A DNA stretch of 64,000 nucleotides from a virus (IMGVR_UViG_3300014501_000013:9806-73805), one strand, 5' to 3'; positions 26,267 through 57,940 are shown, counted from the first letter of the stretch. Made by a program: numbers and translations. The notes: generated by a model from the letters alone, not told the origin.

Positions 26267-26775
26267 ACCTCACTGGCCTTCCGGGGATCGGCCAGCTCAC
26301 GAACTCGATTCGCGTTGGGCCATCGCAGCAGAACTCTTCACAGATATGGCTACAAAGCGCGCAGGCTCTCGACACGCTGGATCAGAACTTCCAGAGCGTT
26401 GCGGGCGTGGTCACCGATTTACAGGCGAGCGTCAGTGCGCCAGTGGCCACCTCGTCGCTTTATTACGACAACGGTTCCGGGGCTTCATTTACTCCCAACT
26501 TCGCTCAAGGCACGACGCAGGTATGCACACTGACCGGCAACGCCACGATAAACCCCTCGGCGGGAGCCAAAGCGGGGCAGGAAGTGATTATGATTCTGGT
26601 GCAGGATGCGACCGGCGGCTGGCAGGTCGCCAGCTGGGACGCGAGCTATTACTTCGCGGGCGAGTTCGATCTCGACCCGACGCCGAGCACAGCGACAGTA
26701 TTCCGGTTTGTTCCAAATCAGGCGGGGAACCTGATCCAAAGTGGGCCACCCGTCACAGGGATTGCATTTCCATGA
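26248..26775 (+). CDS. Tail-fibre-associated protein
   Basis: Short coiled coil, then TLTGN.TI...AGQ...ILVQDATGG..V.W...Y.F fibre-tip-type domain; no signal peptide. Confidence 0.6.
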   Translation: MGSASVDLTGLPGIGQLTNSIRVGPSQQNSSQIWLQSAQALDTLDQNFQSVAGVVTDLQASVSAPVATSSLYYDNGSGASFTPNFAQGTTQVCTLTGNATINPSAGAKAGQEVIMILVQDATGGWQVASWDASYYFAGEFDLDPTPSTATVFRFVPNQAGNLIQSGPPVTGIAFP

Positions 26776-28037
26776 TTAAAACTCTACTTTTGTCCTCCCT
26801 TGTTCTCTGCGGTTGCCTTCATGGGCAATATCGCGTCACAGTGGCCGGGTCCGGCAACAAGCAGGCGTTCATCGCCGAGAATCCATCATCGGGCGTGAAC
26901 GGTTCCTGTTACGACCTGCGCACGGTAGACCCTGGTACTGGCATTCTTCACGATGCTGGCCAGATGTGCGGTCTTTTTTACGCTACTGGCTACGCGAATG
27001 CTGGCGTCACCATTGAGACCGTCACCGGCGATAGCGTTTTTCAGCCCAACACCACCTTCCGAGGTCCCGGCATGATTGTTGGCGCGACCGGGCCATCGAG
27101 CTATATCCCCACCGCTGGGCCTTATGCGGCGGTTATCTCGCCGAGCAATCCAGCGTATCTTGTCGTGGAAGGCACCACTGGTGCTGCGGCGATCATTTTG
27201 AGAGATGGCGTCGGGCCGACCAATTCTAAAATGTGGGACTTCATTGCGGACGCTGGTGGCAACCTGCACTTCAGGGCCGTCAACGATATTTACGGCGCGG
27301 CGCAGGACTTTCTCACAATCTCCAGGTCGGGACTGACCATCAACTCGGCGACGTTCAATGAGTCTCTGCTATTTGGCGGCGACAATTCCTACAACGTAGG
27401 ATCAAGCACGAGTGCGGCGGTGAACGTGTACACCGCTGGAGTACAGCTTGGGCGTGGAAACGCGCGGCAGGGCAGCGCTACGTTCTTCAATCCCCTGAAT
27501 GGCAATTCGTTCGTCATGGCTGGAACCAACGTGGCAACCGGCGGCGGGGATCTCGTGGTCGGCAATCTCTTTGGGAGCGGCGCAATCTACCCAATAAACT
27601 CGTCCACCAACCTCGGCTATGCTTCAGGGCCGTTCGCAAATGCCTTCGTCACCAACCTCACCATCTATGGCACATGTACGGGGTGCAGCGGCGCGGCTGG
27701 CGCGAACACGGCGCTGTCGAACTTGGCGTCCACGGCCATCAATACCACGCTGAACACAACAAGCGACATCTATGTAAAGACGGCGAATGTCCACGTTCAG
27801 ACTTCGGGCGGTGTGGACCTAATCGAACTTCAGTACTCGACGGGGACCGCAGGTGCGCTTCTGTTCAATAACTCCTCCGGCACCAATCTTGTGCAGTTCA
27901 ATCAGTTCGGTGTGGACGTGGCGAACGGAGCGACCTACAACTACGGCGGACTGACTGGAGAAACGCATACTGTCACCACGGGAACTTGCACGATGAATTT
28001 CTCGGGCGGCATTCTCACGAGCACTTCAGGGTGTTAG
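26772..28037 (+). CDS. Signal-peptide-bearing fibre-like protein
   Basis: MIKTLLLSSLVLCGCLHG-Q; GANTALSNLAS fibre motif; 6 Cys in the mature part; ATGA-coupled. Confidence 0.7.
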   Translation: MIKTLLLSSLVLCGCLHGQYRVTVAGSGNKQAFIAENPSSGVNGSCYDLRTVDPGTGILHDAGQMCGLFYATGYANAGVTIETVTGDSVFQPNTTFRGPGMIVGATGPSSYIPTAGPYAAVISPSNPAYLVVEGTTGAAAIILRDGVGPTNSKMWDFIADAGGNLHFRAVNDIYGAAQDFLTISRSGLTINSATFNESLLFGGDNSYNVGSSTSAAVNVYTAGVQLGRGNARQGSATFFNPLNGNSFVMAGTNVATGGGDLVVGNLFGSGAIYPINSSTNLGYASGPFANAFVTNLTIYGTCTGCSGAAGANTALSNLASTAINTTLNTTSDIYVKTANVHVQTSGGVDLIELQYSTGTAGALLFNNSSGTNLVQFNQFGVDVANGATYNYGGLTGETHTVTTGTCTMNFSGGILTSTSGC

Positions 28038-28186
28038 CTATTTTCTCAAAAGCTTCCGCTGCTGTTCCCGCCCACTGTTCTGGCGTCATCTCTACGCGAA
28101 GAACTTCGGTTTTAATGAATTGGCCTGCCGTTATGCGGGACGAACGGCTCTCGTAGATCACATTGCCAGCTTCAGGATTGTCTTCA

Positions 28187-30745
28187 ATGCGAGTCACGGT
28201 GAGCAGATATTTCATATCTCTGATAGTACTTCTATTCGGTTCCGTCGCGGTGTTGGCCCAATCGGTGACCATCTCCGATACGCTCTACCTCCCTGACGGT
28301 ACGAAGTATTCAGGGCAACTCACGATCTCATGGCCAGTACCGTTCACGGGTGGTGATGGTCGGCAGATTCCATCGGGACCGCCGATCTCAACAAGCGTAA
28401 ACAATGGAGTGCTGAGTGTGGCGCTTGAGGCGAATAGTACCGCGACACCAGCCGGCACGTTTTACCAAGTAGTTTACCGACCGGCGGGAAGTTCAGCTAT
28501 TACCGAAATATGGATCGTCCCCTGCTGCTCTTCTCCGGTAAATCTGAGCACTGTCCGAGTGGCACTTCCGCCGTCGCCGTCCTTCATGATCGCGCTTTCG
28601 CAACTAGCCCAAGGCGGAGCGACTTCGGGCCAGTGCATCACATGGGGTGGCAGTTCGTGGGCCGTTGGCGCGTGCGGCAACCTGCCAAACATCGTGACAC
28701 CTGGGACGAACACAAAGATCACCTACAACGCCCAAGGTCTTGTCACGTCAGCCGTCCAAGCTAACTTCACCGACTTGGCGGGATCTTTGCAACTCACGCA
28801 GACGCCGCTCACTACAAGTCAGGACATCTTATTTGACAACGCCGGAAGTCTTGGGCGTCTTCCCATTTCCTTGGTTGGGAACGGAGCATGTCTTGGCAAC
28901 TCCGGCGGCGTGTGGGCCAGTCTGGCGTGTTCGGGAGGCGGCGGTACAGGAACGGTCATCAACGACGCGCCGCTCACGAACGGGCAACTCGCGATCGGTG
29001 GGACAGCGGGTGGCGTTCACATCACGGTCGGAGATTTGAGTGGGGACATTGCTACCGCTGGCAGCACCGTAACAGTGCTTCCTACTGTCAACTCGAACGT
29101 AGGCACCTGTGGCGATTCGACTCACGTTAGCCATATTACTCTCAATGCTAAAGGACAAGCCACGGCTTGTACTGCGGTGGCTATTTCCGGTGTTTCTTTC
29201 CCGTCTGCCTCGGCCCAGCTCCAATATCTACGCATTCAGCCCAACACCGGCAATCTTACTACTACCCAATTCGCGGGTCCGTTTGTGTTCTACCCGGAAG
29301 ACTACAACTTCACTGCGCAAGCCCCAGGCGGCTCTCTGACAGGTGGTGGTGGTACTCAAACAATCAACCTCTCTCCGTGTCCTCTTGGCTTGAATGGCTC
29401 GGATACATTGCACCAAGTGTATCTTAGCGGGGGAACGGGCACAGCCGAAGCCAAGCCGATTACGGGTGGTACCTGCATATCCGGCGCGTCATCGGGAACT
29501 ATTACTCTGTCTCCAACGAACTCGCATAGCGGTGCGTGGACGGTCGGACCTGCATCGGCCGGAATCCAGGAAGCGCTGGTTGCCGCTAGTGGTTCTGGAG
29601 TGAAACTGCGCGATGCCACGTATGGCGTGTACGCGCCGATCTACGTGTGCCAAGGAACACTGACTGGCGCGGGGATGTTCAACTCCATCCTTCAGATTCA
29701 AACGGCCTCTGTGGGCGCTATTGATGCACCGTGCCAAAAGGACACTTTTGAAAATTTCGGCATCACGACTGCCAGCATGACGCCGGGAACGAGCGGAAAC
29801 TACGGAATCCGACTCGGCAACGGATCGGGACACGACAACTCTTTCACGCGCATCAACCGCCTTTACTTTGAGCCGCTGTACGACGCGATCCTTTGCATCA
29901 ATTGCTCCCAGACTTCGATTACGAACAACGTTTTTTACAACTTCTACCACACCGCGATCACGGCTAACGACACCACGGGCGGAGACAACGATGGGCCTTG
30001 GATTCGCGGCAACGTGATGTTTAACTACAACTCGTACTCGACGCCGGCGCTCGCCTGCATGTACATCACTTCGACGGGTGGCATCACGATCACCGACAAC
30101 AATTGCTACGGAAGTTCGGCGCTTACTTCGCCGCAACTCCAGTACAACGTCTACATGAATCAGACGGCATCGACGCAGTTGACGATGAAAGGGAATGTCT
30201 TCGAGACGGTATCAGTGGATAACGTAGCGCTGGTTGGGGTCTTTAATCTTATCACTATCACTGGCAATACCATCGCGCAGCCGCAAGTCGCCCAATCGGG
30301 GTGGCGCGGCATTACGATTAGCGGCAATAACACGACCAGTCCATGCGGCAGCGGAATCGGCATCTGCCAGGTTGCGATTACAGGAAACACTATTCAGGGT
30401 CCGGGGCCAAGTTCTAGTTCTTCCGTCTGCATTGAACTGATCGGCTATATAAGTGGTGCGTTCATCGGCGGGAACCCCTGTAACTTTTCGCAGATCGGCG
30501 TCAACATCGGCAGCAACGTGACGGCCACCACCGTGGGCCAGAACCAGATGTCCACATATAGCACTAACGTATACGGCGGTTCGACGGGCACAACATGGGA
30601 CTCGCCAGCAGCAATCGTCTGGTCTCAGCGCCCGATAGCAGCGAATGGTTCTGTTATCTACATGAGCGATGCCAACGCGGGCTGCACCGCTGGAGGCTCC
30701 AGTGGCCAACGGTGTGAATTTATAAATTCTGCATGGACCCATTAA
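28187..30745 (+). CDS. Signal-peptide-bearing fibre/tailspike with beta-helix (pectate-lyase-like) C-terminus
   Basis: ...RYFISLIVLLFGSVAVLA-Q; TKITYNAQGLVT fibre repeats; ITxN/GN beta-helix rungs; about 22 paired Cys. Confidence 0.75.
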   Translation: MRVTVSRYFISLIVLLFGSVAVLAQSVTISDTLYLPDGTKYSGQLTISWPVPFTGGDGRQIPSGPPISTSVNNGVLSVALEANSTATPAGTFYQVVYRPAGSSAITEIWIVPCCSSPVNLSTVRVALPPSPSFMIALSQLAQGGATSGQCITWGGSSWAVGACGNLPNIVTPGTNTKITYNAQGLVTSAVQANFTDLAGSLQLTQTPLTTSQDILFDNAGSLGRLPISLVGNGACLGNSGGVWASLACSGGGGTGTVINDAPLTNGQLAIGGTAGGVHITVGDLSGDIATAGSTVTVLPTVNSNVGTCGDSTHVSHITLNAKGQATACTAVAISGVSFPSASAQLQYLRIQPNTGNLTTTQFAGPFVFYPEDYNFTAQAPGGSLTGGGGTQTINLSPCPLGLNGSDTLHQVYLSGGTGTAEAKPITGGTCISGASSGTITLSPTNSHSGAWTVGPASAGIQEALVAASGSGVKLRDATYGVYAPIYVCQGTLTGAGMFNSILQIQTASVGAIDAPCQKDTFENFGITTASMTPGTSGNYGIRLGNGSGHDNSFTRINRLYFEPLYDAILCINCSQTSITNNVFYNFYHTAITANDTTGGDNDGPWIRGNVMFNYNSYSTPALACMYITSTGGITITDNNCYGSSALTSPQLQYNVYMNQTASTQLTMKGNVFETVSVDNVALVGVFNLITITGNTIAQPQVAQSGWRGITISGNNTTSPCGSGIGICQVAITGNTIQGPGPSSSSSVCIELIGYISGAFIGGNPCNFSQIGVNIGSNVTATTVGQNQMSTYSTNVYGGSTGTTWDSPAAIVWSQRPIAANGSVIYMSDANAGCTAGGSSGQRCEFINSAWTH

Positions 30746-30752
30746 ATTCTCT

Positions 30753-31079
30753 ATGAAACTACTACTCATTCTCTCACTATTTTCGTTGGCCGCATTCGCT
30801 GCCGACGCACCGAAACCAACACCAACCCCGGTCAACCCGATCACGGACAAGCAAGCGAAAGATGCTGCTATCGTTCAGCGCGATTTCATGGTGGCCAAGT
30901 CGGATCTCGACGCGGCACAGACCAAGTTCAACGCAGCGCAGAAAGCGCTCATGGCCAAGTATGACGAACTGGGCGCGAGTTGCAAAACGATCAAGCAGAC
31001 TTTTGAGCCGAACGCAATAGGGTGCGTGCCTGCTCCAGAGACAGCCGCAGTTACCGCGAAAACAGAACCCAAGAAGTAA
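30753..31079 (+). CDS. Small secreted coiled-coil protein
   Basis: MKLLLILSLFSLAAFA-AD; one Cys pair. Confidence 0.7.
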   Translation: MKLLLILSLFSLAAFAADAPKPTPTPVNPITDKQAKDAAIVQRDFMVAKSDLDAAQTKFNAAQKALMAKYDELGASCKTIKQTFEPNAIGCVPAPETAAVTAKTEPKK

Positions 31080-31091
31080 AGGAGAACTCGC

Positions 31092-31802
31092 ATGTCTTCA
31101 ATGCCGATGTCACCGCAACAAATGATGATGATGCGCCAGCAGCAGCAAGGGAATCAACAGCAACAGGCAATGCCCGCTGCTGGCCCCGGCGGAGGTGCGC
31201 TCCCAATGATGCCACAACGTCCAGCGGGATCTCCCGGCGCATGGGGTTCTGGCGGCGGTGGGGCACCGATGGGCGGCCCTGGCCAGTGGGGTGGTGGCGC
31301 TCCCGGTGGAATGCCGCCGCGCCAAATGCCGCCGCAAATGGGCGGTCCCCCTGGCGGCGGGATGCCTCCTGGGATGCCGGGCGGAATGCCGCAGCAGGGG
31401 ATGATGCCACCTGGAGGCGGCGGTGGGATGCCTCCGCGACCGATGGGCCAACAGATGGCTCCCCCCGGCGGAGGACCTAATTATGGGACTGGCTACGGGA
31501 GTGCTCCTGGTGCTAACGGTGGTTTGCCTTCAGTAGGAGCCAACGCGACTGCTGGAAACTCGTATGGTCCAGGGGCTCCTCAAATGCCTCCAGGGATGGG
31601 CGGCGGCCAAATGCAACCGATGGGTGGTCCATCAATGTCTGGCCAGCCAGCGCCCCCTGGTGCAGGTGCGCCACCGCAATCCGCCCAAAATCCATGGGGC
31701 GGCGCTGGAGGAACTATGCAAGGGCTACCGCCGCAACAGGGCGGCGGTATGCAGCAAAACCAGCTCGCCATGCTTCGCCGTCAGCAGCCAATGAGCCAGT
31801 AA
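31092..31802 (+). CDS. G/P/M/Q-rich prion-like low-complexity protein
   Basis: No D, E, K, H, C, F or I in 236 aa; RBS AAGGAG. Confidence 0.7.
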   Translation: MSSMPMSPQQMMMMRQQQQGNQQQQAMPAAGPGGGALPMMPQRPAGSPGAWGSGGGGAPMGGPGQWGGGAPGGMPPRQMPPQMGGPPGGGMPPGMPGGMPQQGMMPPGGGGGMPPRPMGQQMAPPGGGPNYGTGYGSAPGANGGLPSVGANATAGNSYGPGAPQMPPGMGGGQMQPMGGPSMSGQPAPPGAGAPPQSAQNPWGGAGGTMQGLPPQQGGGMQQNQLAMLRRQQPMSQ

Positions 31803-31812
31803 GGAGTTCCCC

Positions 31813-33435
31813 GTGTCAACCGCTCCCGCACCGTACAGCAATTTCAGTTATTCGGATTGGCTCAACCAAGCTCCGTATCAGTCCTTCAACGATGGAAACA
31901 TCAACGGTGTCCAGAACTCCAATTGGTCCAATCCGAACTCTGCCTTCCAAAGCAACCTTCTCAACGAGCAGGTTCAGGGCGGAGAACTGCAATCAGAGTT
32001 CGGGAACACGGCGAACTCTGCTCAACAGCTTGCAAATTACTACCGCGTGCCGATGGACCAGGCTGCGGGAGCGCTCGCCCAGACTCCAGGCTACACATCC
32101 GGCGAACTGGGTAACATTCTCGATACCAGCGGCTACCAGCAGGGCGAGACCACGGGAGGGCAGTATGCCTCGATGGCCCCCACCGGGTCGCAGCAGTCGG
32201 CGATGGAGGGCAACCCGAACAGTTTCATGAACTGGTTCGATCCGGCGCAAACGCAGGGCGATATCACGACTGCCGCCGGCTATTCGCAAAATGACCTGAA
32301 CAACACCAACATCGCGTTGCAAAACACAATGAATAACCAGTCCGCTGGCTATTCAGGTGCGATCAATCCATCGGCGTTGACGGTTAACCCAGCGCTTCAG
32401 GGACAACTGCAAAACACGGTCGGCGGGGCGACCAGCGCGATCAATTCGGCTGTCAATAGCCCCAACCTTCAATTGAACCTCGCGCCACAGAACTACCTGA
32501 TGAGCAATCAGCAGGTTCAGGCAACACAGAACCAGGCGGCGCAAGACGTTCAGCAGCAGGCGCAATCCCAGTACGAGAACACCTACAAATCCGCGCTCGC
32601 TTCTGGCAATGCCGATCCCATGGCGCTCGCGGCGCTCCAACAGCAATCGCAGGCTACAGGTGAAGAAGCCGCGGCCAACGCTGAGACAAGTGCCAACCTT
32701 GCAGCAACAGGCCAACAGCGAACCCTTGCGATGAACTACGCCCAAGCTCAGTTGGGAGCCGGGCAGACACAGGCGGGGTTGCAATCATCGGCGCAAGAGA
32801 ACCTCCTTGGCCAGACGCTTGGAGAACAGACCGGGTACGCGGGCCTCCAGATTGGAGCGCAGCAGGGACTGACCCAAGACCAGATGACAGCGGTCCAGAA
32901 TCAAGCGAACACGCAGACGGGAGCCAACGAATATCTCGGTACCACGGGCGTCAACTTACAACAGGGCGTCGGAGCGCAGGAAGAGGCTGCTCAGCAGTAT
33001 TTGACGAATATGGGCACTGGCATAACAGAGGCGCAGAATACCGCGAAGACGGGCGCAGCCACCCAGCAGTATCAGAACCAGCTTCAGAACCAGATGTACC
33101 AGCAGCAGAACACGTTCAACCAGAATACCGCGGTGCAGGATCGCCAGTCGGCGGCGTACTCGGCCGCCGCGAATGCGCGCATGGCCGGCCAAGGTCAGTT
33201 CCTCAATTGGTCCACAGGGGCCACCAGCGGAGCGACTAATCAGCAGTTGGCGAGCCAGAACATGCAGGCCGGTGTCTACGGTACGCAGGGTCAGTTGGCA
33301 AACAACGCTGCGGGTCAGTGGGGCAACTACCAGATTCAGAAGAATGGCCAGCCAGGGATGACCTCACAGGTTATGGGCGGAATTGCGGGGGCCGCATCAG
33401 CAGCGGCACCGTATGCAGCGATGGCGTTCGCGTAA
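31813..33435 (+). CDS. Internal virion / DNA ejection (pilot-like) protein
   Basis: Q/N/A/G-rich helical protein with hydrophobic GGIAGAASAAA C-terminus; position. Confidence 0.6.
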   Translation: MSTAPAPYSNFSYSDWLNQAPYQSFNDGNINGVQNSNWSNPNSAFQSNLLNEQVQGGELQSEFGNTANSAQQLANYYRVPMDQAAGALAQTPGYTSGELGNILDTSGYQQGETTGGQYASMAPTGSQQSAMEGNPNSFMNWFDPAQTQGDITTAAGYSQNDLNNTNIALQNTMNNQSAGYSGAINPSALTVNPALQGQLQNTVGGATSAINSAVNSPNLQLNLAPQNYLMSNQQVQATQNQAAQDVQQQAQSQYENTYKSALASGNADPMALAALQQQSQATGEEAAANAETSANLAATGQQRTLAMNYAQAQLGAGQTQAGLQSSAQENLLGQTLGEQTGYAGLQIGAQQGLTQDQMTAVQNQANTQTGANEYLGTTGVNLQQGVGAQEEAAQQYLTNMGTGITEAQNTAKTGAATQQYQNQLQNQMYQQQNTFNQNTAVQDRQSAAYSAAANARMAGQGQFLNWSTGATSGATNQQLASQNMQAGVYGTQGQLANNAAGQWGNYQIQKNGQPGMTSQVMGGIAGAASAAAPYAAMAFA

Positions 33436-33444
33436 AGGAACCTA

Positions 33445-35826: not shown

Positions 35827-35827
35827 C

Positions 35828-37318: not shown

Positions 37319-37908
37319 AATATTTGATGATTCCACTTTTCGCAATCGCCGCGTGGGCGCAGGAGGGGCAGCCCGTCAGCATCAGTCCCGCACCTGTGCC
37401 GCAAGCCTTCACTACGATCACACACTATACTAGCGGCAATCCTGACCGCGTTTGCAAGGCGCGATCCACGCAAGACGTATTCACGATCACGACCTCGGCG
37501 ATCTCGAATGCAAACCCAGGCGTCATCACGGCCACGGCTCACGGTTTCTATTACGACTCGGGCAACACGAGCGTTGTTCAAAAGTTCGTTGTGTTCATCT
37601 CCGGACTCACGGGAAGCTGGGCACCGCTGAATGGGCTCCAAGTGGTTTTTGCATCGAGTGCCAACGCGCTGACAAGCACGGTTAACACGACGGCATACGG
37701 TGCGGTAACCGGAACTGCCGTGGTTTCCTCGCGAGCCCCGCGCGTTACCGCCTCGATCTGGTCTGTGCTCACTACTGTCTACGATTCCAGCAATAACCCG
37801 ACAATCACTGCTTGGCCAGTTCCGACCACAGGTGCCACGCTCGGCAATCTTCAGGGTGGTCAAACGTCTTTCGCTTTCCCATGCGCGGCTCAAAGCGCGG
37901 TCCAGTAA
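37315..37908 (+). CDS. Secreted FCCH-like beta-domain protein
   Basis: MKYLMIPLFAIAAWA-Q; ISNANPGVIT..AHGF...ISGL.G....NG; two Cys. Confidence 0.7.
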   Translation: MKYLMIPLFAIAAWAQEGQPVSISPAPVPQAFTTITHYTSGNPDRVCKARSTQDVFTITTSAISNANPGVITATAHGFYYDSGNTSVVQKFVVFISGLTGSWAPLNGLQVVFASSANALTSTVNTTAYGAVTGTAVVSSRAPRVTASIWSVLTTVYDSSNNPTITAWPVPTTGATLGNLQGGQTSFAFPCAAQSAVQ

Positions 37909-37917
37909 GGAGTATCC

Positions 37918-42336: not shown

Positions 42337-42344
42337 GAGCCACC

Positions 42345-43793
42345 ATGCGAAAACTACTTATTGTCCTTCTCCTAAGTCTCCCGGCTTTCGCTGCCACGAA
42401 CAACGTTACCAGCGGCACCGTGTTCAAGCTTGACGCCTCGACCGGCGTGGATACTAACGGAGGCGGCTTCGACGCAACCGCTTCGTGCAGTGGCAGCGGC
42501 GGCTCTGACTTAACCCTGTCCGCCCCCGTCGCTACGACCCTGGCCACAAGCACAGGCAGCGCCTCGACCACAATCACCCAGGTCGGCGGCACATGGACGA
42601 GCTCGATGGTTTGCAATGTCATCCATATAAACAGCGGAACCAATTTTACTGTTGGGTTCTATACTATCGTGGCGTTCACTAATTCCAATAACCTCGTCCT
42701 GAATGTAAGCCCGTGCCCTACAACCGCCTGCACTACTGGAGTTACTGACGTCGGAGGCCCGCTGCTGACCATCGCCAAGGCCATCACCGCCGTAGCTGCT
42801 GGCAACACTGGCTATGTAAAGAGCAGCGCGACCTATTCGATCAACGCGAGCAATGCTTTTGCCACGAATGGCACGAGTGGACTTCCTGTTTCGTGGATCG
42901 GCTACACGAGTTCGCTTACGGATGGCGGTCATCCGACGATCCAGATCAGCAGCGGAACGGGCCTTACCATCTTTAACGCAACCGGAAAAAGCTTCCAACA
43001 ATTTAGACATTTCACCCTGGATTGCAACGGCAAGACCACGTCCACTGGCCTGGCGGCAGGCAACGCAGGAACCGTTTACGACGACATCAGTGTAACGGGC
43101 TGCACGGCGGTTGGAATAAACATATCGGCGTCACATGCGCAGGTGAGCAATAGTAGCGTGAGTGGCATGACCGCGTGCACGGCGAGTTCCGGAGCATTCA
43201 CAATCTCCCAGACGAATGTCTACCTTTTTAACAATCGCGCGACCGGCAATGCCTGCACTGGGTTCTGGGATTCGGCTGGGGGCGAGAATACTTACATCGG
43301 AAATGTTTCGGACAATAACACCGGAGCGTCTACAGACGGATTCTATAAATCTGGGGTGGCGGGGTTCACGATGCATGACAACGTGGCCTACCTGAACGGT
43401 CGGGACGAGTACCGTTTTGATAACGCAGCCGCGCTTGATTCATTCAGTTTCTATAACAACGTGGCGTGGGGCACGGGCGGAAAGTGCTTCAACTCAACCA
43501 CTACCAACTGGTCGGCAGATCCTGCGTTCGCGTGGGATTACAATGCGGACGGAGGGGGATGCACGGCTTACACGGGCATTCCGGCTGGGCTGCACGACGT
43601 TACTCTAACCGTCGATCCTTTCGTGGCTGGAGCGTCCAACAACTTTGCGCTGAACGCAACGACGGGAGGTGGGGCGCTTTTGCGAGCCGTTGGCTTCCCC
43701 GGAGTTAGGAACAGCGGTGGAACCGGGTACAAAGATATCGGCGCGCTGCAATCACAGGGTTCTTCACCGGTGTCGTATCCTATTTCGCAGTAG
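42345..43793 (+). CDS. Secreted right-handed beta-helix protein (depolymerase-like)
   Basis: MRKLLIVLLLSLPAFA-A; P.LTIAKAI..V.AGNT.YVK, beta-helix rungs, DPF...NF.L...DIGALQ end; 10 Cys. Confidence 0.75.
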   Translation: MRKLLIVLLLSLPAFAATNNVTSGTVFKLDASTGVDTNGGGFDATASCSGSGGSDLTLSAPVATTLATSTGSASTTITQVGGTWTSSMVCNVIHINSGTNFTVGFYTIVAFTNSNNLVLNVSPCPTTACTTGVTDVGGPLLTIAKAITAVAAGNTGYVKSSATYSINASNAFATNGTSGLPVSWIGYTSSLTDGGHPTIQISSGTGLTIFNATGKSFQQFRHFTLDCNGKTTSTGLAAGNAGTVYDDISVTGCTAVGINISASHAQVSNSSVSGMTACTASSGAFTISQTNVYLFNNRATGNACTGFWDSAGGENTYIGNVSDNNTGASTDGFYKSGVAGFTMHDNVAYLNGRDEYRFDNAAALDSFSFYNNVAWGTGGKCFNSTTTNWSADPAFAWDYNADGGGCTAYTGIPAGLHDVTLTVDPFVAGASNNFALNATTGGGALLRAVGFPGVRNSGGTGYKDIGALQSQGSSPVSYPISQ

Positions 43794-43986
43794 GCCGTAT
43801 GAAGATCTGCGACATGACCCCCATATACACCATGGCCAAGATGATGACGATGTTCTGGAGAGCGATGATGGGAGCAAGCAGGATACGTTTGAGCGAGGTA
43901 CCTTTATGACGTTCTGGAGGCCCGGCGGGCGCGTATGTCGCCTGGGAGTCGGTGTTGGAATATTCGGTAAAGGGGGACCATTCGGA

Positions 43987-46900
43987 TTGCATAGACTACC
44001 AGCATACGCCTTTCTCCTATTTGCGGCAATCGTGATAGTACCAGTACGCGCCGCCTGCACCGCCAGCGTGGTAACGCCAGCCGCCAGCGCCTCGATCAGC
44101 GGTCTCTCCTATGCCCTCACCGCCAGCCTCTCTACGTGCCCAACGGCCCTCTCGGTCGAGTGGATGATCGACGGCGAATCGCAAGGCGTCTTCTGGCAGG
44201 CTCCGTGGTCTATCTCCTCCTGGAACACCAACAATCGCTGGCGTGGCCCCGCTCACAACGCCTACGTGATCGTTCGCGATCCGACCGGAGCGACTATCGC
44301 CACATCGCCGACCAACACCTTCGCCATCACGAATGACTATCTCGAACCCGCTGCCTACATCAACCTCGTCTCCGTCACGCCATCGACCGCGATCTCGAGC
44401 AACTGGTCGGGCGTAGTCAACTTGGTCGCGACCTTCAACGGCACCAACGCCACCAATGCCAAGGCAATCACCGTTTACGTGGACGGGGACGTGCTTGGCT
44501 TCGAATCACTCAACGAATTATCCACGAGCGGTTCGACCGCGACCACGATGAACGCAGCCGTCAACACGACGCAGTATCTAAATGAGGGCCATGAAGTCTG
44601 CTTAGTCGTAAAAGATATCGCCTCCGGCCGTCCTGGTGTCACCAACGGCGGCTACCCGTTCGGCGAATGGTGTCAGCAGGTGACGTTCTCGAATACCTCG
44701 ACCATCCTGCTCAAGAACGCGACCACAAACGCGGACTACGTGTGTTGGGGCGGTGGCGCTTGCAACACGTTTTCGAGCCTCACTGCTCCAGCATCAGGTA
44801 CGGTCAACGTCACCACCGGCGATTTTCTGCTGGTCTGCGATGGCTACTTTCAGGGCGGCGCTACCACAATAACCGACACGCTGGGAAATAGTTGGACGGC
44901 GGTCAATACCGGAACGAAACAGGCAAACTGGAATCAATACTGTTTCTATTCGGCGAACGTAACGGGCGGCGCGGATGCCTTCACCGCGACCTTCGCAGGC
45001 GGCGGAGCGAAAAGCATGGCACTGCTGGTGCGCGAGTATTCAGGCGTGGCCACTAGTTCGCCAATCGACACCCAAATCACTTCGACAGGCACCTCCTGCG
45101 CGTCTCCCTGCGTTGTCACTTCCGGCACGTTCACTACCTCGAACGCAAACGATATGATCGCTTTGTATTACGTGTCCAATATAAATGGCCAAGTATTCCA
45201 GAACGGTCTGAACGCCAGCCTCGATAGCACCACGAGCGCCACTGGCGGAGGGACATCACAACTATTAACTGCAACAGTCAGCGGAGGTACAGCGACGATC
45301 GGGATTGCGAACGGTAGCAGCCTAACCTACGGCATGACCGTAGTCGCTCTCAATGCGGCATCCAACACACCTATTGCAACTCCCAGCCAGCTCACCCTCT
45401 CGCCCAAGGACTGGGTGATCTCGCCATCGTCGGGGACCATCCAACTTACACCCTCGATTGCGAATGCGGATACTACCTCGACGACGGTCACGAGCGCTAT
45501 GAACCCGGTCTACACGACCACGAATAGTTCGGTCTGCACTGTTTCCTCCAGCGGCCTCGTCACGGGTGTGGCGTATGGTTCTTGCGGCGTTACAATTACG
45601 CTCGGCAACGGATTGACGGAAACCATCTACGGCTGGGTTTCTTCCACCAACGTAATCCCCTGCCAGACGACGACTGGCCAAATCTCAACCACCAACACAG
45701 GTTGCCTGTGGGTAGCTAGCGTATTCAATTCCTCGGGCATCGCACTGTTTCATGATGCTCTGAAGACACCCACTCAAGTCGGAATCGCCTACCAGAACGC
45801 TGGTTGGAACACCGTCGAAGATTCTCCTGCGCCATCAACTGGCTGGACTGGAGTAAACGGCACCTGTGCGAGCTTCCAATCGACTCTCAATACATATATT
45901 TCAACCCTGACAACACTCTATGCTCCGTTCAAGTTCTACTTTCATGGAGTCGCCACATCGCTCATAACCGGCGTTTTTCCGAACCAGTTCTATGTCGGAG
46001 TGCGTGGCCTTGGCGCGACGTGTTCGCCCCAGAACTGGCAGTACCTAGCTCAGCAGTGGGTTGCTTCCGGAATCCTTCTATCACTGGAAGGACCGGATGA
46101 AGTGGACGCCGATTACTCCTATCCAGTCCCATCGCCCGTTATCAGTTCCAGTGGGCCGTTCACGGGTATCACCTGCACAGTTAGCGGGACTCCAGTATGT
46201 ACAGTAGCCTATGCCAACCCGCAATCTGCTACCAACCAGAACGGCCCTGGGCGAATTGGGATCTTCGGTGGGACAAGCACAGCAGGGCTCGCTATAAATA
46301 GCGCTATCGGAACACCAAATACCAACACTGGCCTCTACGTTCCATCAGGAGTCAGTGGTGGGTTCACATTCACTGGGCCATCCGGAGCGTCTGGCGCAAA
46401 TATCACGTGGGTCAGTGATCCATCCATCCGGATTGAGCCCTTCGCATTCAATTGGCAAACCGCTGTTCCTGGCGGCGGTGGAGACTATTCACACTATCAG
46501 GACTTCGCGACCATGTCCTCATTGGTTCACGCTGGAGGATCTATTATCAGTTCGGCTCCCAGAGCTATCGCCAGTTCTATTTCCCAGTGCGGCTGGGGTG
46601 GCGCTTGCTCCTATGCCGCCGGATCACCTGCGTTCTCCGACTACGCCATCATCTACAACTCGCCGGGCTCAAACGGCACAGCGCAATATGTCGCCCTGCC
46701 TGACATCCGAATCTCCAGGACCCCCAACCTCAACGTCTTCCAGCAGAACCGCAAGTTCATAAACGGCGCCGGATCGCTTCGCGCCTTCCTTGGACAGACG
46801 CAATTCATTCAGACGAACTGGGGAATGAACGGGCAAATCATCACTGGCGTGTCGTGCTCCGGTTCCCTCTGCACGTTCCCTTCTCCCATCTGCGGGGCCG

Positions 46901-48291
46901 GTACAGCAAACAGCCTATGTAACGTAGTCCCTTATGTGTCGCGCGTCATCGGTTCTAGTTCATCGAACTCGTACTACAACGCGAATTTCTATATCGATAA
47001 CTGTCCGACCGCGACGACATGTAACATCTCGCTGCAATATCCATCAACGGCGGGACTTGTTCAAGGATCTGGAGGCACGTTAACGTTCGCCAACGGCGTC
47101 ACGATGGGGCCAACCAATCCATTCCCCTGCATCATCGTCAACGGGTTCTCTCCAAATAACACATTCAATCTACGCAGTTCAACTGTAGGCACGGGCGGCA
47201 GTTGCAGCGGCACCACGAGCGTACCGGCTGCCGTCACCCACAGCGCTGGGCTCACGTTCACGATCTCTGGCATGACCGGATCGAGTGCTAGTTATTACAA
47301 CTCCACCACCTTTATCCTGAGCCAGTTTCCGAGTCCCTACATCACCGAATCCGACACGCCGCGCGAAGTCCCTCCATCGAGCCAGTCCACCAGCAGCGTG
47401 ACCTTCACCCTCAACGCCGATGACGGTTGGGTACGCGGGCAGGGACAATCATTCTATGGTGAGATCGTCCAAGGCCCGCGAGTGCCGTTCGCCTTTGTAG
47501 CGGCGCAAGCGATCACGGCAGCCACCGGGGTTAGGGCGTACACCAGCGGTGAGAACTTCAACGTCGATCAGACTTTCTCTCGTAGCTTCGGCACCTTCCC
47601 TTGTCTAAATGGCGGCGACTGCCTCCAGGGCGGCGCGACTCAGTTCTACGACCAAGGTGCGGATTTGATTCGGTTCTTCAATTCTCCGACCAACGCTAAC
47701 CTGTTACTGGAAAGCTTGGCCATAACCGGGTATCTCTACGGCACGCATGGGAACGCCCCGGACCTTGGGTTCAACATCGAATCTAGCGTTCGGCAAAGCA
47801 GCGTGGGGAACCTGCTCCTGGTCGGAAATTTCAATGATGGGCCGGTCACCCCGGCGATTCCCATTTCTGCCTGCATCGTCAGTGGCCAGTCGGCTATCCG
47901 CTACACCGCCTCGGCGCTTGGCGGAATCGCAACTGCGTCAATCTCTTCTGGAACCACCTCTAACTCCCCGACCATTCCCGCGGGCGGCATGGTGATCTAC
48001 AAGTGCCCTAACGTAAGCGCCGGCGTACTTCAGCAACCAACCATCGCCGCGCTTCTGACAGATGTCGCCAATGCCACCTCCGTCGCCGTCGAGTACGCCT
48101 ATTCTCCGTGGTTCCTCTCGGGGCTTCCACAAGCTGGTGTCCCACTCGCGGTGAGCAGTTCGACGCCTGCGACCGGATTCCTATTGCCAGTCGATCTGAA
48201 GCTGGGGCCGGTTAGCTATCGGTTGGTGTACTCAGGGGCGTCTGGAGTATTAGCGACGGGCGATATCCAGACGATCGGAGGAGTGCAATGA
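43987..48291 (+). CDS. Large secreted Ig-domain / glycoside-hydrolase-like protein
   Basis: TTG start MHRLPAYAFLLFAAIVIVPVRA; Big-type domains (VE..IDG....APW...WNT; V.TVSSSGLVTGV..G); AGWNTV and G.DE motifs; Cys-rich. Confidence 0.7.
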   Translation: MHRLPAYAFLLFAAIVIVPVRAACTASVVTPAASASISGLSYALTASLSTCPTALSVEWMIDGESQGVFWQAPWSISSWNTNNRWRGPAHNAYVIVRDPTGATIATSPTNTFAITNDYLEPAAYINLVSVTPSTAISSNWSGVVNLVATFNGTNATNAKAITVYVDGDVLGFESLNELSTSGSTATTMNAAVNTTQYLNEGHEVCLVVKDIASGRPGVTNGGYPFGEWCQQVTFSNTSTILLKNATTNADYVCWGGGACNTFSSLTAPASGTVNVTTGDFLLVCDGYFQGGATTITDTLGNSWTAVNTGTKQANWNQYCFYSANVTGGADAFTATFAGGGAKSMALLVREYSGVATSSPIDTQITSTGTSCASPCVVTSGTFTTSNANDMIALYYVSNINGQVFQNGLNASLDSTTSATGGGTSQLLTATVSGGTATIGIANGSSLTYGMTVVALNAASNTPIATPSQLTLSPKDWVISPSSGTIQLTPSIANADTTSTTVTSAMNPVYTTTNSSVCTVSSSGLVTGVAYGSCGVTITLGNGLTETIYGWVSSTNVIPCQTTTGQISTTNTGCLWVASVFNSSGIALFHDALKTPTQVGIAYQNAGWNTVEDSPAPSTGWTGVNGTCASFQSTLNTYISTLTTLYAPFKFYFHGVATSLITGVFPNQFYVGVRGLGATCSPQNWQYLAQQWVASGILLSLEGPDEVDADYSYPVPSPVISSSGPFTGITCTVSGTPVCTVAYANPQSATNQNGPGRIGIFGGTSTAGLAINSAIGTPNTNTGLYVPSGVSGGFTFTGPSGASGANITWVSDPSIRIEPFAFNWQTAVPGGGGDYSHYQDFATMSSLVHAGGSIISSAPRAIASSISQCGWGGACSYAAGSPAFSDYAIIYNSPGSNGTAQYVALPDIRISRTPNLNVFQQNRKFINGAGSLRAFLGQTQFIQTNWGMNGQIITGVSCSGSLCTFPSPICGAGTANSLCNVVPYVSRVIGSSSSNSYYNANFYIDNCPTATTCNISLQYPSTAGLVQGSGGTLTFANGVTMGPTNPFPCIIVNGFSPNNTFNLRSSTVGTGGSCSGTTSVPAAVTHSAGLTFTISGMTGSSASYYNSTTFILSQFPSPYITESDTPREVPPSSQSTSSVTFTLNADDGWVRGQGQSFYGEIVQGPRVPFAFVAAQAITAATGVRAYTSGENFNVDQTFSRSFGTFPCLNGGDCLQGGATQFYDQGADLIRFFNSPTNANLLLESLAITGYLYGTHGNAPDLGFNIESSVRQSSVGNLLLVGNFNDGPVTPAIPISACIVSGQSAIRYTASALGGIATASISSGTTSNSPTIPAGGMVIYKCPNVSAGVLQQPTIAALLTDVANATSVAVEYAYSPWFLSGLPQAGVPLAVSSSTPATGFLLPVDLKLGPVSYRLVYSGASGVLATGDIQTIGGVQ

Positions 48292-48349
48292 ACAACAATT
48301 GGAATGATGGCAGTGTTGTAGGGGAAGTACTATGGAATGGAGAACTAAC

Positions 48350-48745
48350 ATGAAACACCTTTTGATTCTCGCTGTTCTTTCGGCCAGCCTGATGGCCGCA
48401 CAATCCAGAACCGTAAATGTAAGCTGGACGCCTTCCACGTCAACCGGAATAACCGGCGTGGCGATCTCGACCGGCACATCGGCTACTGGCCCTTTCACTT
48501 TCAAAGCTTGCGTGGGGGCCGTGAGCGGCCAGACTTGCATATCCGGCTCGACGCCTACCACTACGACTTACGCCGACACCGAAGCGGTTGGAACCACAGT
48601 GTTCTACCAGGTTGTTGCGTTTGCGGCGGCATGCACACCTACAACTCCGGCGACGACCGCCTGTGGTTCTAGCGTGGCGGCGGTTGCGAGCACGACCGTG
48701 CCCTCGCAGCCTGGGATATCGACCGTGATACTCGTTGTGCCGTGA
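48350..48745 (+). CDS. Secreted FN3-like protein
   Basis: MKHLLILAVLSASLMAA-Q; VSWTPS...TTYADT...FYQV.A; 4 Cys. Confidence 0.7.
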   Translation: MKHLLILAVLSASLMAAQSRTVNVSWTPSTSTGITGVAISTGTSATGPFTFKACVGAVSGQTCISGSTPTTTTYADTEAVGTTVFYQVVAFAAACTPTTPATTACGSSVAAVASTTVPSQPGISTVILVVP

Positions 48746-49254
48746 AGCGCACACTCATAGCTGCGTTGATCGTTGGGCTTGCTCTGTTCGGGCAGACGGC
48801 ACCCGGACCCATCGGCAACCTCACGCTCACGGTGGGAGGCGTTGCGCTGACGGGCATCACCAGCCTCACGCTGAGCGCTGGAACGGGCACCGTGGTGAGT
48901 TGCCTCCCAAGCCCCTGCGCGGTGAGTGCTGGAGGCGCCCTGACGGTGCAGGTTTCGGCTAACACCGCTGTCGTCCTTTCCTACCCGGACGCCATGGCCG
49001 CAGCGCCGTTCGACTGCGTCTCAACCAGCGGGACCATCGCCAGTGTCTGCAATCTCAAGGTAGCGCCCACCGTACCGCCGGTCTTCGTGGCGCTGACGAC
49101 CTCGGTAAACTGTCCCGGCGCTTGTTCGCTGAATGTGAGCAATACCGGGATCAAGGCTATCAAGACGAACGCGGCTGGAGCGACGGATGCTACGGTGATG
49201 GCCGGGACACATCTGCTCCGTTACGACGGCACGGTTTATAGGCTTTTGCTTTAG
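48742..49254 (+). CDS. Secreted fibre-domain protein
   Basis: MKRTLIAALIVGLALFG-Q; SLNV...G.KAIK...YDGTV domain also present in the 37918 protein; 6 Cys. Confidence 0.7.
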   Translation: MKRTLIAALIVGLALFGQTAPGPIGNLTLTVGGVALTGITSLTLSAGTGTVVSCLPSPCAVSAGGALTVQVSANTAVVLSYPDAMAAAPFDCVSTSGTIASVCNLKVAPTVPPVFVALTTSVNCPGACSLNVSNTGIKAIKTNAAGATDATVMAGTHLLRYDGTVYRLLL

Positions 49255-51070: not shown

Positions 51071-51075
51071 AGAAC

Positions 51076-57138: not shown

Positions 57139-57147
57139 TCTACGCTC

Positions 57148-57930: not shown

Positions 57931-57940
57931 CTAGCCCTCC

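What the first reader, a model, noticed from the sequence alone, without database searches (positions are those of the whole stretch)
26772..49254. Phage fibre/tailspike module apparently built for periplasmic export: nine signal-peptide proteins with paired cysteines
Seen: nine genes in the late operon (26772, 28187, 30753, 37315, 37918, 42345, 43987, 48350, 48742) start with basic-hydrophobic-AxA/G-Q Sec-type signals, e.g. MRKLLIVLLLSLPAFA, MKYLMIPLFAIAAWA, MRYFLLLLLPFGLAA. In the eight counted, mature Cys numbers are even (6, about 22, 2, 2, about 18, 10, 4, 6) and mostly in close pairs such as QCLYNNNGVWGGTGC and SCVDNSGATRTDC. Adaptor, 22901, 26248 and the ejection proteins have 0-1 Cys and no signal. 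The same proteins carry tail-fibre motifs (TVDAKGRIT, GANTALSNL), beta-helix, Ig, FN3 and FCCH-like domains. Established: tailed virions assemble in the reducing cytoplasm and fibres normally lack signal peptides. Inference: the appendages are exported, disulfide-folded by host Dsb and docked onto virions at lysis, or displayed/released from the infected cell as adhesins or depolymerases. The signal-less 26248 and 22901 proteins could be virion-side anchors. I know of no described system like this.
Basis: partly seen in the sequence, partly recalled or inferred. Interest (0 to 1): 0.92.

Follow-up and report, generated by a model that had tools for sequence, protein, structure and literature searches.

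The report
Phage tail fibres carrying export signals
A complete 74-kb soil phage, probably of Acidobacteria, puts ordinary bacterial secretion signals on all nine of its fibre- and spike-like proteins, one of which keeps a domain shaped like the part that fastens fibres to virus particles, so its host-recognition gear probably folds outside the cytoplasm, a route I found described in no paper for tailed phages.

Summary
All nine named genes begin with a basic, hydrophobic, small-x-small N-terminus. Such N-termini occur in 9 of 16 genes at 26772-49254 against about 3 of 62 elsewhere (p = 1e-5). Six of the nine leave Gln at +1.

The signals look genuine. In two families (the 42345 beta-helix protein and the 28187 tailspike), homologues occur with and without the signal. 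The signal-less ones start exactly where the mature domain begins.

Protein 28187 is signal, then a 100-residue beta-sandwich, a linker and a beta-helix like tailspike depolymerases. The five best structural matches of the sandwich (Z 8.3-10.9) are N-terminal domains of virion neck, collar and tail-tip proteins. The export signal therefore precedes a domain with the fold of a virion fibre N-terminus.

The trait recurs in podovirus-like and siphovirus-like contigs. It also occurs in cultured Tunturiibacter phage Tunturi_4 and in 33 of 401 Acidobacteriota genomes (0 of 301 Planctomycetota).

The cysteine argument is weaker than claimed: signal-less homologues are equally Cys-rich.

Export is likely (about 0.8). 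Docking onto particles at lysis is unproven (about 0.45); secreted or cell-surface use is the main rival.

This scan has noted the same thing on many other genomes. I found no published account for tail parts.

The parts
26772..28037 (+). 421-aa fibre-like protein. Its signal ends in VLCGC/LHG-Q, so it is either a lipoprotein box or a signal peptidase I site. 6 mature free Cys in 3 close pairs.
   Evidence: Translation. Cys map. The only homologue, P0038, is 49% identical and has the same LCGCLHGQYRV. The start overlaps the stop of 26248 (ATGA).
28187..30745 (+). 852-aa tailspike-like protein. Signal at aa 1-24. Anchor-like beta-sandwich at aa 25-125 (nt 28259-28561). Low-confidence Cys-stapled linker at aa 130-365. 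Right-handed beta-helix at aa 370-852 (nt 29294-30745). 22 Cys.
   Evidence: AlphaFold model, pLDDT 78.6. Foldseek matches to AlgE4, CBA120 TSP3, Klebsiella phage depolymerases and the Pam1 tailspike. N-domain model and VIA matches at Z 8.3-10.9 to virion fibre N-termini. 2506 homologues.
30753..31079 (+). 108-aa small protein: signal, Pro-rich linker, helical body and one Cys pair (77/91). Role unknown; it could be a periplasmic helper or spanin-like.
   Evidence: Translation. No family match.
37315..37908 (+). 197-aa protein with signal MKYLMIPLFAIAAWA|Q and 2 Cys.
   Evidence: The start overlaps the stop of the preceding Cys-free internal protein.
37918..42336 (+). 1472-aa fibre-like giant with signal ...GLAA|Q and 18 Cys in 9 pairs. 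Its C-terminal ~115 aa (nt 41986-42336) form a module shared with signal-bearing fibres of other phages.
   Evidence: C-terminus 43% identical to the L002/L003 553-aa protein and 57% identical to the L060 994-aa protein. The Atlas gives only weak leads to viral fibre clusters, scores up to 0.85.
42345..43793 (+). 482-aa beta-helix protein with signal ...PAFA|A and 10 Cys.
   Evidence: 36 homologues, several carrying Pfam Beta_helix PF13229. About half carry a signal; the rest start at MA..TVWEVR, where the mature domain begins. Tree.
43987..48291 (+). 1434-aa giant protein, TTG start, signal ...VPVRA|AC, 32 Cys. One Big_2 Ig-like domain at aa 500-542 (nt 45484-45612).
   Evidence: AAGGGGG lies about 13 nt upstream of the TTG.
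48350..48745 (+). 131-aa Thr/Ser-rich protein with signal ...LMAA|Q and 4 Cys in 2 pairs.
48742..49254 (+). 170-aa protein, GTG start overlapping the previous stop, signal ...ALFG|Q, 6 Cys in 3 pairs.
22901..26775 (+). Three signal-less late proteins (460, 660 and 175 aa) just upstream of the first signal-bearing gene. They are candidate particle-side tail parts; their function is not established.
   Evidence: No signal; 1, 6 and 1 Cys. No Pfam or PHROG match.
31092..37318 (+). Four Cys-free, signal-less, Q/G/N-rich proteins (236, 540, 793 and 496 aa). They are probably internal or ejection proteins and split the signal-bearing genes into two blocks.
   Evidence: The C-terminus of the 33445 protein matches the Gly-rich 526-aa protein of L002/L003. 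The function is inferred from composition and position only.
9963..12053 (+). Terminase large subunit, which marks this as a tailed phage.
   Evidence: phrog_2, E = 3.6e-17. tblastn to annotated terminases.
49278..49646 (+). 122-aa signal-less Tlde1/YkuD-like (L,D-transpeptidase fold) protein directly after the last signal-bearing gene.
   Evidence: PF10908, E = 1.8e-11. phrog_24118, E = 2.6e-31. A 50% identical copy lies beside the fibre genes of L060.

Best explanation
The nine proteins are the phage's receptor-binding and accessory appendages: a tailspike depolymerase, beta-helix proteins, long fibres and small partners. They carry functional Sec signal peptides of their Acidobacteriota-type host, and one may be a lipoprotein.

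Shown:
- The N-termini have canonical signal anatomy.
- The signal is a detachable add-on placed exactly in front of the conserved mature domain.
- The bodies are of tailspike or fibre type.
- The 28187 protein keeps an N-terminal domain with the fold of virion fibre N-termini.

Inferred:
- The proteins are translocated by Sec late in infection.
- Signal peptidase I cleaves them, often leaving Gln at +1.
- They fold and form local disulfides in the periplasm.

More speculative:
- When the inner membrane is breached at lysis, the exported appendages dock through their anchor domains onto particles built in the cytoplasm.

My odds are about 0.8 for export and about 0.45 for the whole chain, including docking.
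For: Signal anatomy and clustering:
- All nine N-termini have signal anatomy and cluster in the late operon.
- +1 Gln occurs in 6 of 9. It also occurs in the Acidobacteriota chromosomal homologues and in Tunturi_4 gp113.

Signal as an add-on:
- In the beta-helix family, 16 members carry a signal and 16-20 start directly at the conserved WEVRTTG.DTNGGGF motif.
- In the 28187 family, 88 of 150 top hits are signal-like. The signal-less ones start MALTTV.DTLY, exactly at the first strand.
- The signal was gained or lost at least 2 times on well-supported branches, and most parsimoniously 8 times.

Virion link:
- The five best structural matches of the N-domain (Z 10.9-8.3; the next is 7.5) are residues 1 to about 100 of the A-1(L) neck fibre, a chain of the Ur-lambda tail tip complex, a chain of the Bxb1 tail tip, the XM1 neck and the DEV collar.
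- The Atlas structure search adds actinophage minor tail proteins.
- Signal-less copies of the N-domain start a large protein that follows a fibre-like gene in podovirus-like contigs L052-L054.

Module shuffling typical of receptor-binding proteins.

Operon integration:
- Gene ends overlap or abut.
- Promoter-like and terminator-like sites are no more frequent than in shuffled sequence.

Recurrence:
- The trait occurs in podovirus-like (L002-L004) and siphovirus-like (L055, L060) contigs.
- It occurs in cultured siphovirus Tunturi_4.

Cysteines:
- A Cys-stapled hairpin (GQC..W.G..W.PG.C) was seen only in signal-bearing members.
Against: - No experiment and no trained signal predictor; my heuristic is crude.
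- Cys-richness does not track the signal. Signal-less homologues are equally Cys-rich, and even counts are only 55-66% in both groups.
- Phage Milano shows that virion disulfides can form without export (PMC10811340).
- The hairpin result rests on 7 signal-bearing against 2-4 signal-less sequences.
- The anchor-like N-domain was found in only one of the nine proteins.
- A lipoprotein-type signal on the 26772 protein would tether it to a membrane, which fits poorly with a virion part.
- Acidobacteriota chromosomes carry single signal-bearing copies of the same N-domain on 1100-2300-aa proteins. Bdellovibrio MAT fibres show that the architecture of signal, beta-rich domain and fibre can serve cell-surface display (PMC10769870).
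- No docking partner was identified, and no lysis cassette was recognised.
- Other agents of this scan made the same reading, and later checks priced the docking claim at about 10%.
Confidence: 0.45

Rival explanations
1. The proteins are exported but are not virion parts. They act from the infected cell as secreted or surface-displayed depolymerases and adhesins. They might clear the cell's own exopolysaccharide before release, destroy or mask receptors (superinfection exclusion), or serve as MAT-like surface fibres. The particle would carry other, signal-less receptor-binding parts.
For: - Bdellovibrio MAT fibres have a signal, a conserved ~130-aa beta-rich domain and variable fibre tips, and are cell-displayed (PMC10769870).
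- Acidobacteriota chromosomes hold single signal-bearing copies of the N-domain on giant proteins with an SGNH domain.
- The 26772 leader fits a lipoprotein box.
- Signal-bearing Porphyromonas phage proteins were read as outer-membrane modifiers (PMC10367356).
- Signal-less proteins 22901, 24284 and 26248 exist and could be the real tail tip.
Against: - Nine genes covering about 16 kb of a 74-kb genome is a large investment for accessories.
- I recognised no signal-less fibre or tailspike in the window, so the phage would lack a recognisable receptor-binding protein.
- The N-domain's best structural matches are virion-bound N-termini.
- The chromosomal copies lie directly after a head-tail-adaptor-like gene (phrog_442), which points to particles and not to the bare cell surface.
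- The genes are embedded between tail and internal-protein genes with no sign of their own promoters.
Confidence: 0.3
2. The leaders are real in sequence but are not used for export during infection. The phage might block or saturate Sec late, or the proteins might fold and trimerise too fast, so that they stay in the cytoplasm and assemble in the classical way. The leader would be tolerated, be clipped by another protease, or serve only when the gene is expressed from a prophage.
For: - Textbook cytoplasmic assembly of tailed phages.
- Signal-less homologues evidently work without a leader.
- Frequent gain and loss of the leader could mean that it matters little.
Against: - The leaders keep full n-h-c anatomy and host-style +1 Gln across distant homologues while their sequences drift, which implies selection for function.
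- All nine distal proteins have a leader, and no head or internal protein does.
- The trait is shared by unrelated morphotypes of the same host group.
Confidence: 0.1
3. Artefact: wrong start codons or chance hydrophobic N-termini.
For: - Three starts are internal to longer open frames (26772, 43987, 48350). Two use TTG or GTG.
- No gene caller or SignalP was available.
Against: - Enrichment p = 1e-5.
- Homologues called independently in other assemblies start with the same kind of leader.
- The starts abut or overlap the previous stops.
Confidence: 0.03

Closest known systems
Virion neck, collar and side-fibre proteins with an N-terminal beta-sandwich domain (cyanophage A-1(L) gp5 neck fibre 8keg; chains of the Ur-lambda tail tip complex 9e7m and the Bxb1 tail tip 9d93; XM1 neck 7kjk; DEV collar 9cod; actinophage minor tail proteins)
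   Same: The first ~100 mature residues of the 28187 protein have the same fold and the same position at the protein's N-terminus (Z 8.3-10.9, rmsd 2.5-2.8 A over 83-96 residues). They are followed by a variable enzymatic or fibre body.
   Different: None of these solved proteins is known to me to carry a signal peptide. Here a Sec leader precedes the domain. Sequence identity is only 16-20%, and docking was not tested.
Podovirus tailspike depolymerases (CBA120 TSP2/TSP3, Klebsiella phage depolymerases, cyanophage Pam1 tailspike, P22 gp9 type)
   Same: A right-handed beta-helix body of about 480 residues after an N-terminal anchor and linker. Beta_helix Pfam matches in homologues.
   Different: Signal peptide, many Cys pairs and Cys-stapled hairpins in the linker. 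The catalytic residues and substrate are unknown.
Tunturiibacter phage Tunturi_4 gp113 'tail protein' and gp114 'virion structural protein' (PP885687.1; Demina et al. 2025, PMC11924767)
   Same: A cultured Acidobacteriota phage whose two terminal tail-module proteins begin with classical leaders (..SASFG|Q....IPSFA|S..) and hold 10 and 20 Cys. gp113 shares a 61-residue module at 56% identity with the 28187 protein.
   Different: It is a siphovirus and is otherwise unrelated. The paper mentions neither signal peptides nor virion proteomics.
Bdellovibrio bacteriovorus MAT (mosaic adhesive trimer) fibres (Caulton et al. 2024, PMC10769870)
   Same: [quoted passage not shown]
   Different: They are chromosomal, displayed on the predator cell, and not part of a virus. 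Homology of the N-domains was not tested, and no S74 domain was found here.
Signal-peptide proteins of Porphyromonas gingivalis phages obeying the Q-rule (Matrishin et al. 2023, PMC10367356)
   Same: Phage-encoded proteins with host-style Sec leaders that expose an N-terminal Gln. Here 6 of 9 do so.
   Different: Those are proteins of unknown function, capsid proteins and spanins, read as outer-membrane modifiers. Tail fibres and spikes are not mentioned.
Lambda Lom and Bor type morons in tail regions
   Same: Signal-bearing proteins encoded among tail genes (PMC12309495).
   Different: Those are single small outer-membrane proteins expressed from the prophage. Here there are nine proteins of up to 1472 aa with fibre or spike folds, packed in the late operon.

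Membership tests
Sec / signal peptidase I signal peptides | Positively charged n-region, uncharged hydrophobic h-region of about 8-15 residues, and small residues at -3 and -1 | tested here: met
   All nine meet this by a home-made heuristic and by eye. SignalP was not available.
Sec / signal peptidase I signal peptides | The leader is conserved in kind but not in sequence among homologues and lies outside the folded domain | tested here: met
   The model shows a separate N-terminal helix at residues 2-20.
Sec / signal peptidase I signal peptides | Actual translocation and cleavage | not testable with these tools
   This needs PhoA fusions or N-terminal proteomics.
Bacterial lipoprotein (signal peptidase II) signal, for the 26772 protein only | Lipobox [LVI][ASTVIC][GAS]C within the first ~35 residues after a basic n-region | tested here: inconclusive
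   V-L-C-G-C at 11-15 fits the pattern as I remember it (PROSITE PS51257, from memory) and is conserved in P0038. LHG|Q three residues later is an equally good signal peptidase I site.
Tailspike / polysaccharide depolymerase (right-handed beta-helix) | Parallel beta-helix fold | tested here: met
   28187 protein: pLDDT above 90 over 370-852 and Foldseek probability 1.0 to AlgE4, TSP3 and phage depolymerases. 42345 family: PF13229 in homologues.
Tailspike / polysaccharide depolymerase (right-handed beta-helix) | Homotrimer with an active site, and activity on a host glycan | not tested
   No multimer model was run, and the substrate is unknown.
Virion fibre N-terminal anchor domain | The same fold at the extreme N-terminus of the mature protein | tested here: met
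   VIA Z 10.9-8.3 to five virion appendage N-termini, clearly above the next matches at 7.5 or below. Foldseek top hit Bxb1 tail tip, E = 4.5e-4.
Virion fibre N-terminal anchor domain | Binds a tail or neck protein of the particle | not tested
   No partner could be named.
Bdellovibrio MAT fibres | Signal peptide followed by a conserved beta-rich N-domain and a mosaic fibre | tested here: met
   The architecture matches for the 28187 protein and the Acidobacteriota chromosomal proteins. Feature as stated in PMC10769870.
Bdellovibrio MAT fibres | Sequence or fold homology of the N-domain to the MAT N-domain; S74 chaperone-protease in the S74 subgroup | not tested
   No MAT N-domain sequence could be fetched. 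Pfam found no S74 domain in the nine proteins, which bears only on the S74 subgroup.
Lom/Bor-type moron | Small outer-membrane protein with its own promoter and terminator, expressed from the prophage | tested here: not met
   Sizes are 108-1472 aa with fibre or spike folds. Genes abut or overlap, and promoter-like and terminator-like sites are not above the shuffled level.

The most novel reading that the evidence does not exclude
A widespread group of tailed phages of Acidobacteriota, of both short-tailed and long-tailed kinds, builds its particle in two compartments. Head, tail core and internal proteins are made in the cytoplasm. The whole receptor-binding apparatus is sent through Sec, trimmed to an N-terminal (pyro)glutamine and disulfide-folded in the periplasm. 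It is fastened to the particle by a classical fibre-anchor domain only when lysis joins the compartments.
Probability: 0.4. Interest if true: 0.9.

Novelty: new variant of a known kind. Interest (0 to 1): 0.72.

Why it matters
Tailed-phage morphogenesis is taught as wholly cytoplasmic. If the host-recognition parts mature in the periplasm, that would add a last assembly step at or after lysis.

It would also explain how soil phages obtain disulfide-stabilised spikes. Host Sec, signal peptidase and Dsb functions would become phage dependency factors.

It would change how receptor-binding proteins are recognised in metagenomes, because a signal peptide is now often taken as evidence against phage origin (for example PMC6199706).

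The idea is directly testable, because a cultured phage with the trait exists (Tunturi_4 on Tunturiibacter).

Tried and rejected
**Searches with no match**
- Pfam and PHROGs on almost all late proteins found nothing beyond Big_2, TerL and Tlde1.
- phmmer against PDB sequences found nothing for four signal-bearing proteins.
- tblastn of the putative portal and of the 42345 protein against cultured phages found no match.
- An IMG/VR search with the putative capsid protein found no relatives.
- Alignments A1 and A4 were too diverse for locus searches; smaller alignments worked.

**Tools and records not available**
The contexts of P0001-P0036 could not be fetched, so I used IMG/VR and genome loci instead.
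- Accession PP885684.1, a guess for another Tunturi phage, is not in the collection.
- The last protein search, with the N-domain against longer proteins, gave 7 unnamed hits and no taxonomy.

**Ideas tested or considered**
- Cys density or even Cys counts as a marker of export: rejected at family level.
- A phage-encoded Dsb or signal peptidase: none was seen among the proteins scanned, but not every small ORF was scanned.
- The 30753 protein as an i-spanin: considered only, because no partner lipoprotein gene was seen.

**Not run**
- Complex prediction was not run because no docking partner could be chosen rationally.
Full report
**What the window is.** The window is bases 9806-73805 of a 73,805-base IMG/VR virus record that CheckV rates 100% complete. 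GC content is an even 55-60%. A terminase large subunit lies at 9963-12053 (phrog_2, E = 3.6e-17; tblastn to annotated terminases). The long + strand operon that follows has the size order expected of portal, scaffold, capsid, tail and internal proteins. Apart from TerL, however, none of these has a Pfam or PHROG match, so those names are inferred from position and size only. No cultured phage is close.

**Checking the observation.**
- Each N-terminus has a basic residue near the start, an uncharged hydrophobic stretch (mean Kyte-Doolittle 2.7-3.5 over 8 residues) and a small-x-small site.
- With one simple rule applied to every ORF, 9 of 16 genes at 26772-49254 are signal-like, against about 3 of 62 elsewhere (p = 1e-5).
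- The likely cleavage leaves Gln at +1 in six of nine (p = 6e-7).
- Mature Cys counts are 6, 22, 2, 2, 18, 10, 32, 4 and 6. Most Cys lie in consecutive pairs 3-28 residues apart.
- The genes abut or overlap their neighbours. Promoter-like and terminator-like sites are not above the shuffled level, so these are not obvious morons.
- Corrections: the 26772 leader (VLCGC, then LHG|Q) also fits a lipoprotein box and is conserved in its one homologue. The signal-less 24284 protein has 6 Cys and the putative portal has 11. Only a beta-helix and one Big_2 domain could be verified among the named domains.

**Are the leaders real?** The strongest evidence comes from homologues.
- The 42345 protein has 36 homologues of about 480 aa, several with Pfam Beta_helix. 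About half begin with a leader of the same kind. The others begin MA..TVWEVRTTG.DTNGGGF, exactly where the mature part of the leader-bearing ones begins.
- The 28187 protein has 2506 homologues, and 88 of the 150 best carry a leader.
- An alignment of N-termini shows a conserved ~110-residue domain (..TVTDTLY..DGT...G...I.WP.F ... E.W.VP.S.SPV.L..VR). It is preceded either by a leader or by only Met-Ala-Leu.
- The leader is therefore a detachable add-on placed precisely in front of a folded domain. It keeps its physical character while its sequence drifts.
- On a tree of the mature parts of the beta-helix family, the leader changes state 8 times by parsimony, and at least twice on well-supported branches.

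**What the proteins are.**
- An AlphaFold model of the 28187 protein (42-row alignment, pLDDT 78.6) has four parts: a leader helix (2-20), a confident beta-sandwich (26-125), a low-confidence stretch (130-365) and a confident right-handed beta-helix (370-852).
- The helix matches alginate epimerases, GH87 glucanase, CBA120 tailspikes, Klebsiella phage depolymerases and the Pam1 tailspike.
- The N-domain was modelled alone on 27 sequences (pLDDT 81) and compared with 48,161 PDB representatives. Its five best matches are all N-terminal residues 1 to about 100 of virion proteins: the A-1(L) neck fibre (Z 10.9), a chain of the Ur-lambda tail tip complex (10.5), a chain of the Bxb1 tail tip (10.2), the XM1 neck (10.2) and the DEV collar (8.3). 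The next matches are generic transthyretin-like domains at Z 7.5 or below.
- Foldseek puts the Bxb1 tail tip first. The Atlas structure search adds actinophage minor tail proteins and Acidobacteriota clusters.
- The export leader thus sits in front of a domain with the fold of virion fibre N-termini. I read it as an anchor by analogy.
- The 37918 giant shares its last ~115 residues with leader-bearing fibre proteins of other phages (43% in L002/L003, 57% in L060). The L002/L003 protein joins the 28187-type N-domain to that tip. This is the module shuffling typical of receptor-binding proteins.
- I recognised no signal-less fibre or spike in the window.

**How widespread it is, and the likely host.**
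- In IMG/VR, relatives of the beta-helix gene with a leader sit among other leader-bearing genes (L002-L004). Leader-less relatives (L005-L007) have no such neighbours.
- N-domain proteins without a leader occur in three related podovirus-like contigs with no leader-bearing neighbours (L052-L054).
- N-domain proteins with a leader occur in L055, L057-L060 and L062. L055 and L060 have siphovirus-like tail genes followed by two or three consecutive leader-bearing genes.
- L060 also carries a 50% identical copy of the window's Tlde1-like gene.
- In genomes, the N-domain was found in 33 of 401 Acidobacteriota and 0 of 301 Planctomycetota sampled.
- The only cultured-phage hit of the 28187 protein is Tunturiibacter phage Tunturi_4. 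Its gp113 'tail protein' and gp114 'virion structural protein' start with classical leaders and have 10 and 20 Cys.
- The host is therefore probably a member of Acidobacteriota. The trait follows the host group and not a phage lineage.

**The cysteine argument.**
- Leader-less homologues are as Cys-rich as leader-bearing ones (2.21% against 1.83%, and 1.35% against 1.61%). Even Cys counts are 55-66% in both groups.
- Virion disulfides can form without export (phage Milano, PMC10811340).
- One finer signal exists. The small hairpin motif G-Q-x-L-x-W-x-G-x-x-W-x-P-G carries a flanking Cys pair in 5 of 7 leader-bearing homologues and in three related copies in the window. It carries none in the 2-4 leader-less ones. 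The numbers are too small to lean on.

**Mechanism and rivals.** I rate export itself as likely (about 0.8). The leaders are canonical, host-styled and selectively maintained, and they are confined to the distal appendages.
- *Docking.* Whether the exported proteins end up on the particle is open. In favour are the anchor fold, the lack of any other recognisable receptor-binding protein, the position of the genes between tail and internal-protein genes, and the classical fact that fibres can be added to finished particles in vitro (my own knowledge: T4 fibre complementation).
- *Main rival (about 0.3).* The proteins work from the cell as secreted or surface-displayed enzymes and adhesins. Three things favour it. 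Bdellovibrio MAT fibres have a signal, a conserved ~130-aa beta-rich domain and a mosaic fibre, and are cell-displayed (PMC10769870). Acidobacteriota chromosomes carry one leader-bearing copy of the N-domain on 1100-2300-aa proteins, one of them with an SGNH domain. The 26772 protein has a possible lipobox. Against this rival, the chromosomal genes follow a head-tail-adaptor-like gene (phrog_442), which suggests a particle.
- *Unused leaders (about 0.1).* This is hard to square with their conservation.
- *Start-codon artefact (about 0.03).* This is excluded for practical purposes.

**Comparison with what is known.** I found no paper that describes Sec leaders on tail fibres or spikes of tailed phages.
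- The norm is stated the other way round: phage DGR targets lack the leaders of their bacterial counterparts (PMC6199706).
- 5% of soil prophage CAZymes have leaders (PMC13507307).
- Porphyromonas phages encode Q-rule leader proteins of unknown function (PMC10367356).
- Lom is a leader-bearing moron (PMC12309495).
- The Tunturi paper mentions neither leaders nor virion proteomics.
- Within this scan the same observation was made on many other genomes (189 notes). Later checks there priced the docking claim at about 10%, and those notes are not independent evidence.
Two families have leader-bearing and leader-less members whose mature starts coincide. The leader precedes a domain with a virion-anchor fold. 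The phylum contrast is 33 of 401 against 0 of 301. Cys-richness does not track the leader.

**Verdict.** The proteins are of fibre or tailspike type, and export is probable. Docking at lysis is a reasonable but unproven step. The idea can be tested with the Tunturi_4 isolate.

Noticed in passing
L046:5983-14474 (also L047, L048, L051; Acidobacteriota genomes G322, G104, G357, G294): A conserved chromosomal cluster. It holds an HTH regulator, a 362-aa protein, a head-tail-adaptor-like protein (phrog_442), three small proteins, and a leader-bearing 1100-1750-aa fibre-like protein with the same N-domain. The L046 copy, the only one scanned, carries a GDSL/SGNH domain. HipA-like and DUF3037-like genes flank the cluster. 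It looks like a domesticated phage-derived particle or fibre system and occurs once per genome in about 8% of sampled Acidobacteriota.
   Followed up: partly
window 49278-49646: A signal-less Tlde1/YkuD-like (L,D-transpeptidase fold) protein lies right after the fibre genes. A 50% identical copy lies beside the fibre genes of siphovirus-like contig L060. It is possibly a peptidoglycan-acting virion or lysis enzyme.
   Followed up: partly
window 56749-58459 (- strand): A papain-family (Peptidase_C1) protein at 57148-57930 is flanked by two small proteins whose N-termini look like twin-arginine plus lipobox signals (SRRNIITRS..LAAC; TRRDFGRT..LIGC). L004 has a possible relative, judged by eye from a similar N-terminus (L004:17433-18179).
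   Followed up: no
window 30753-31079: A 108-aa protein with a leader or membrane anchor, a Pro-rich linker, a helical body and one Cys pair sits between the tailspike and the internal proteins. Its build resembles an i-spanin, but no partner lipoprotein gene was seen.
   Followed up: no
window 28625-28672, 28883-28930, 38032-38079: A repeated 14-16-residue hairpin (C-x-x-W/N-x-G-x-x-W-x-x-x-x-C) resembles a fibre motif (GQ.L.W.G..W.PG) seen in homologues, but is closed by a Cys pair. The Cys pair was seen only in leader-bearing homologues.
   Followed up: partly
genome ends (G000:C1:1-60 and 73746-73805): Both ends of the record consist of CCCGGA-type hexamer repeats. The assembly probably broke inside a tandem repeat, so the 'linear' status is not informative.
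   Followed up: no
window 61549-62679 (-), 52609-53364 (-), 8066-8860 (+): A RecT recombinase, a HicB-like antitoxin-domain protein and a histidine phosphatase lie among the early or accessory genes.
   Followed up: no
window 51700-52104 and 50953-51357: Small membrane-protein-like ORFs lie downstream of the fibre block and could be holin candidates. No endolysin or spanin was recognised, so the lysis system of this phage is unidentified.
   Followed up: no
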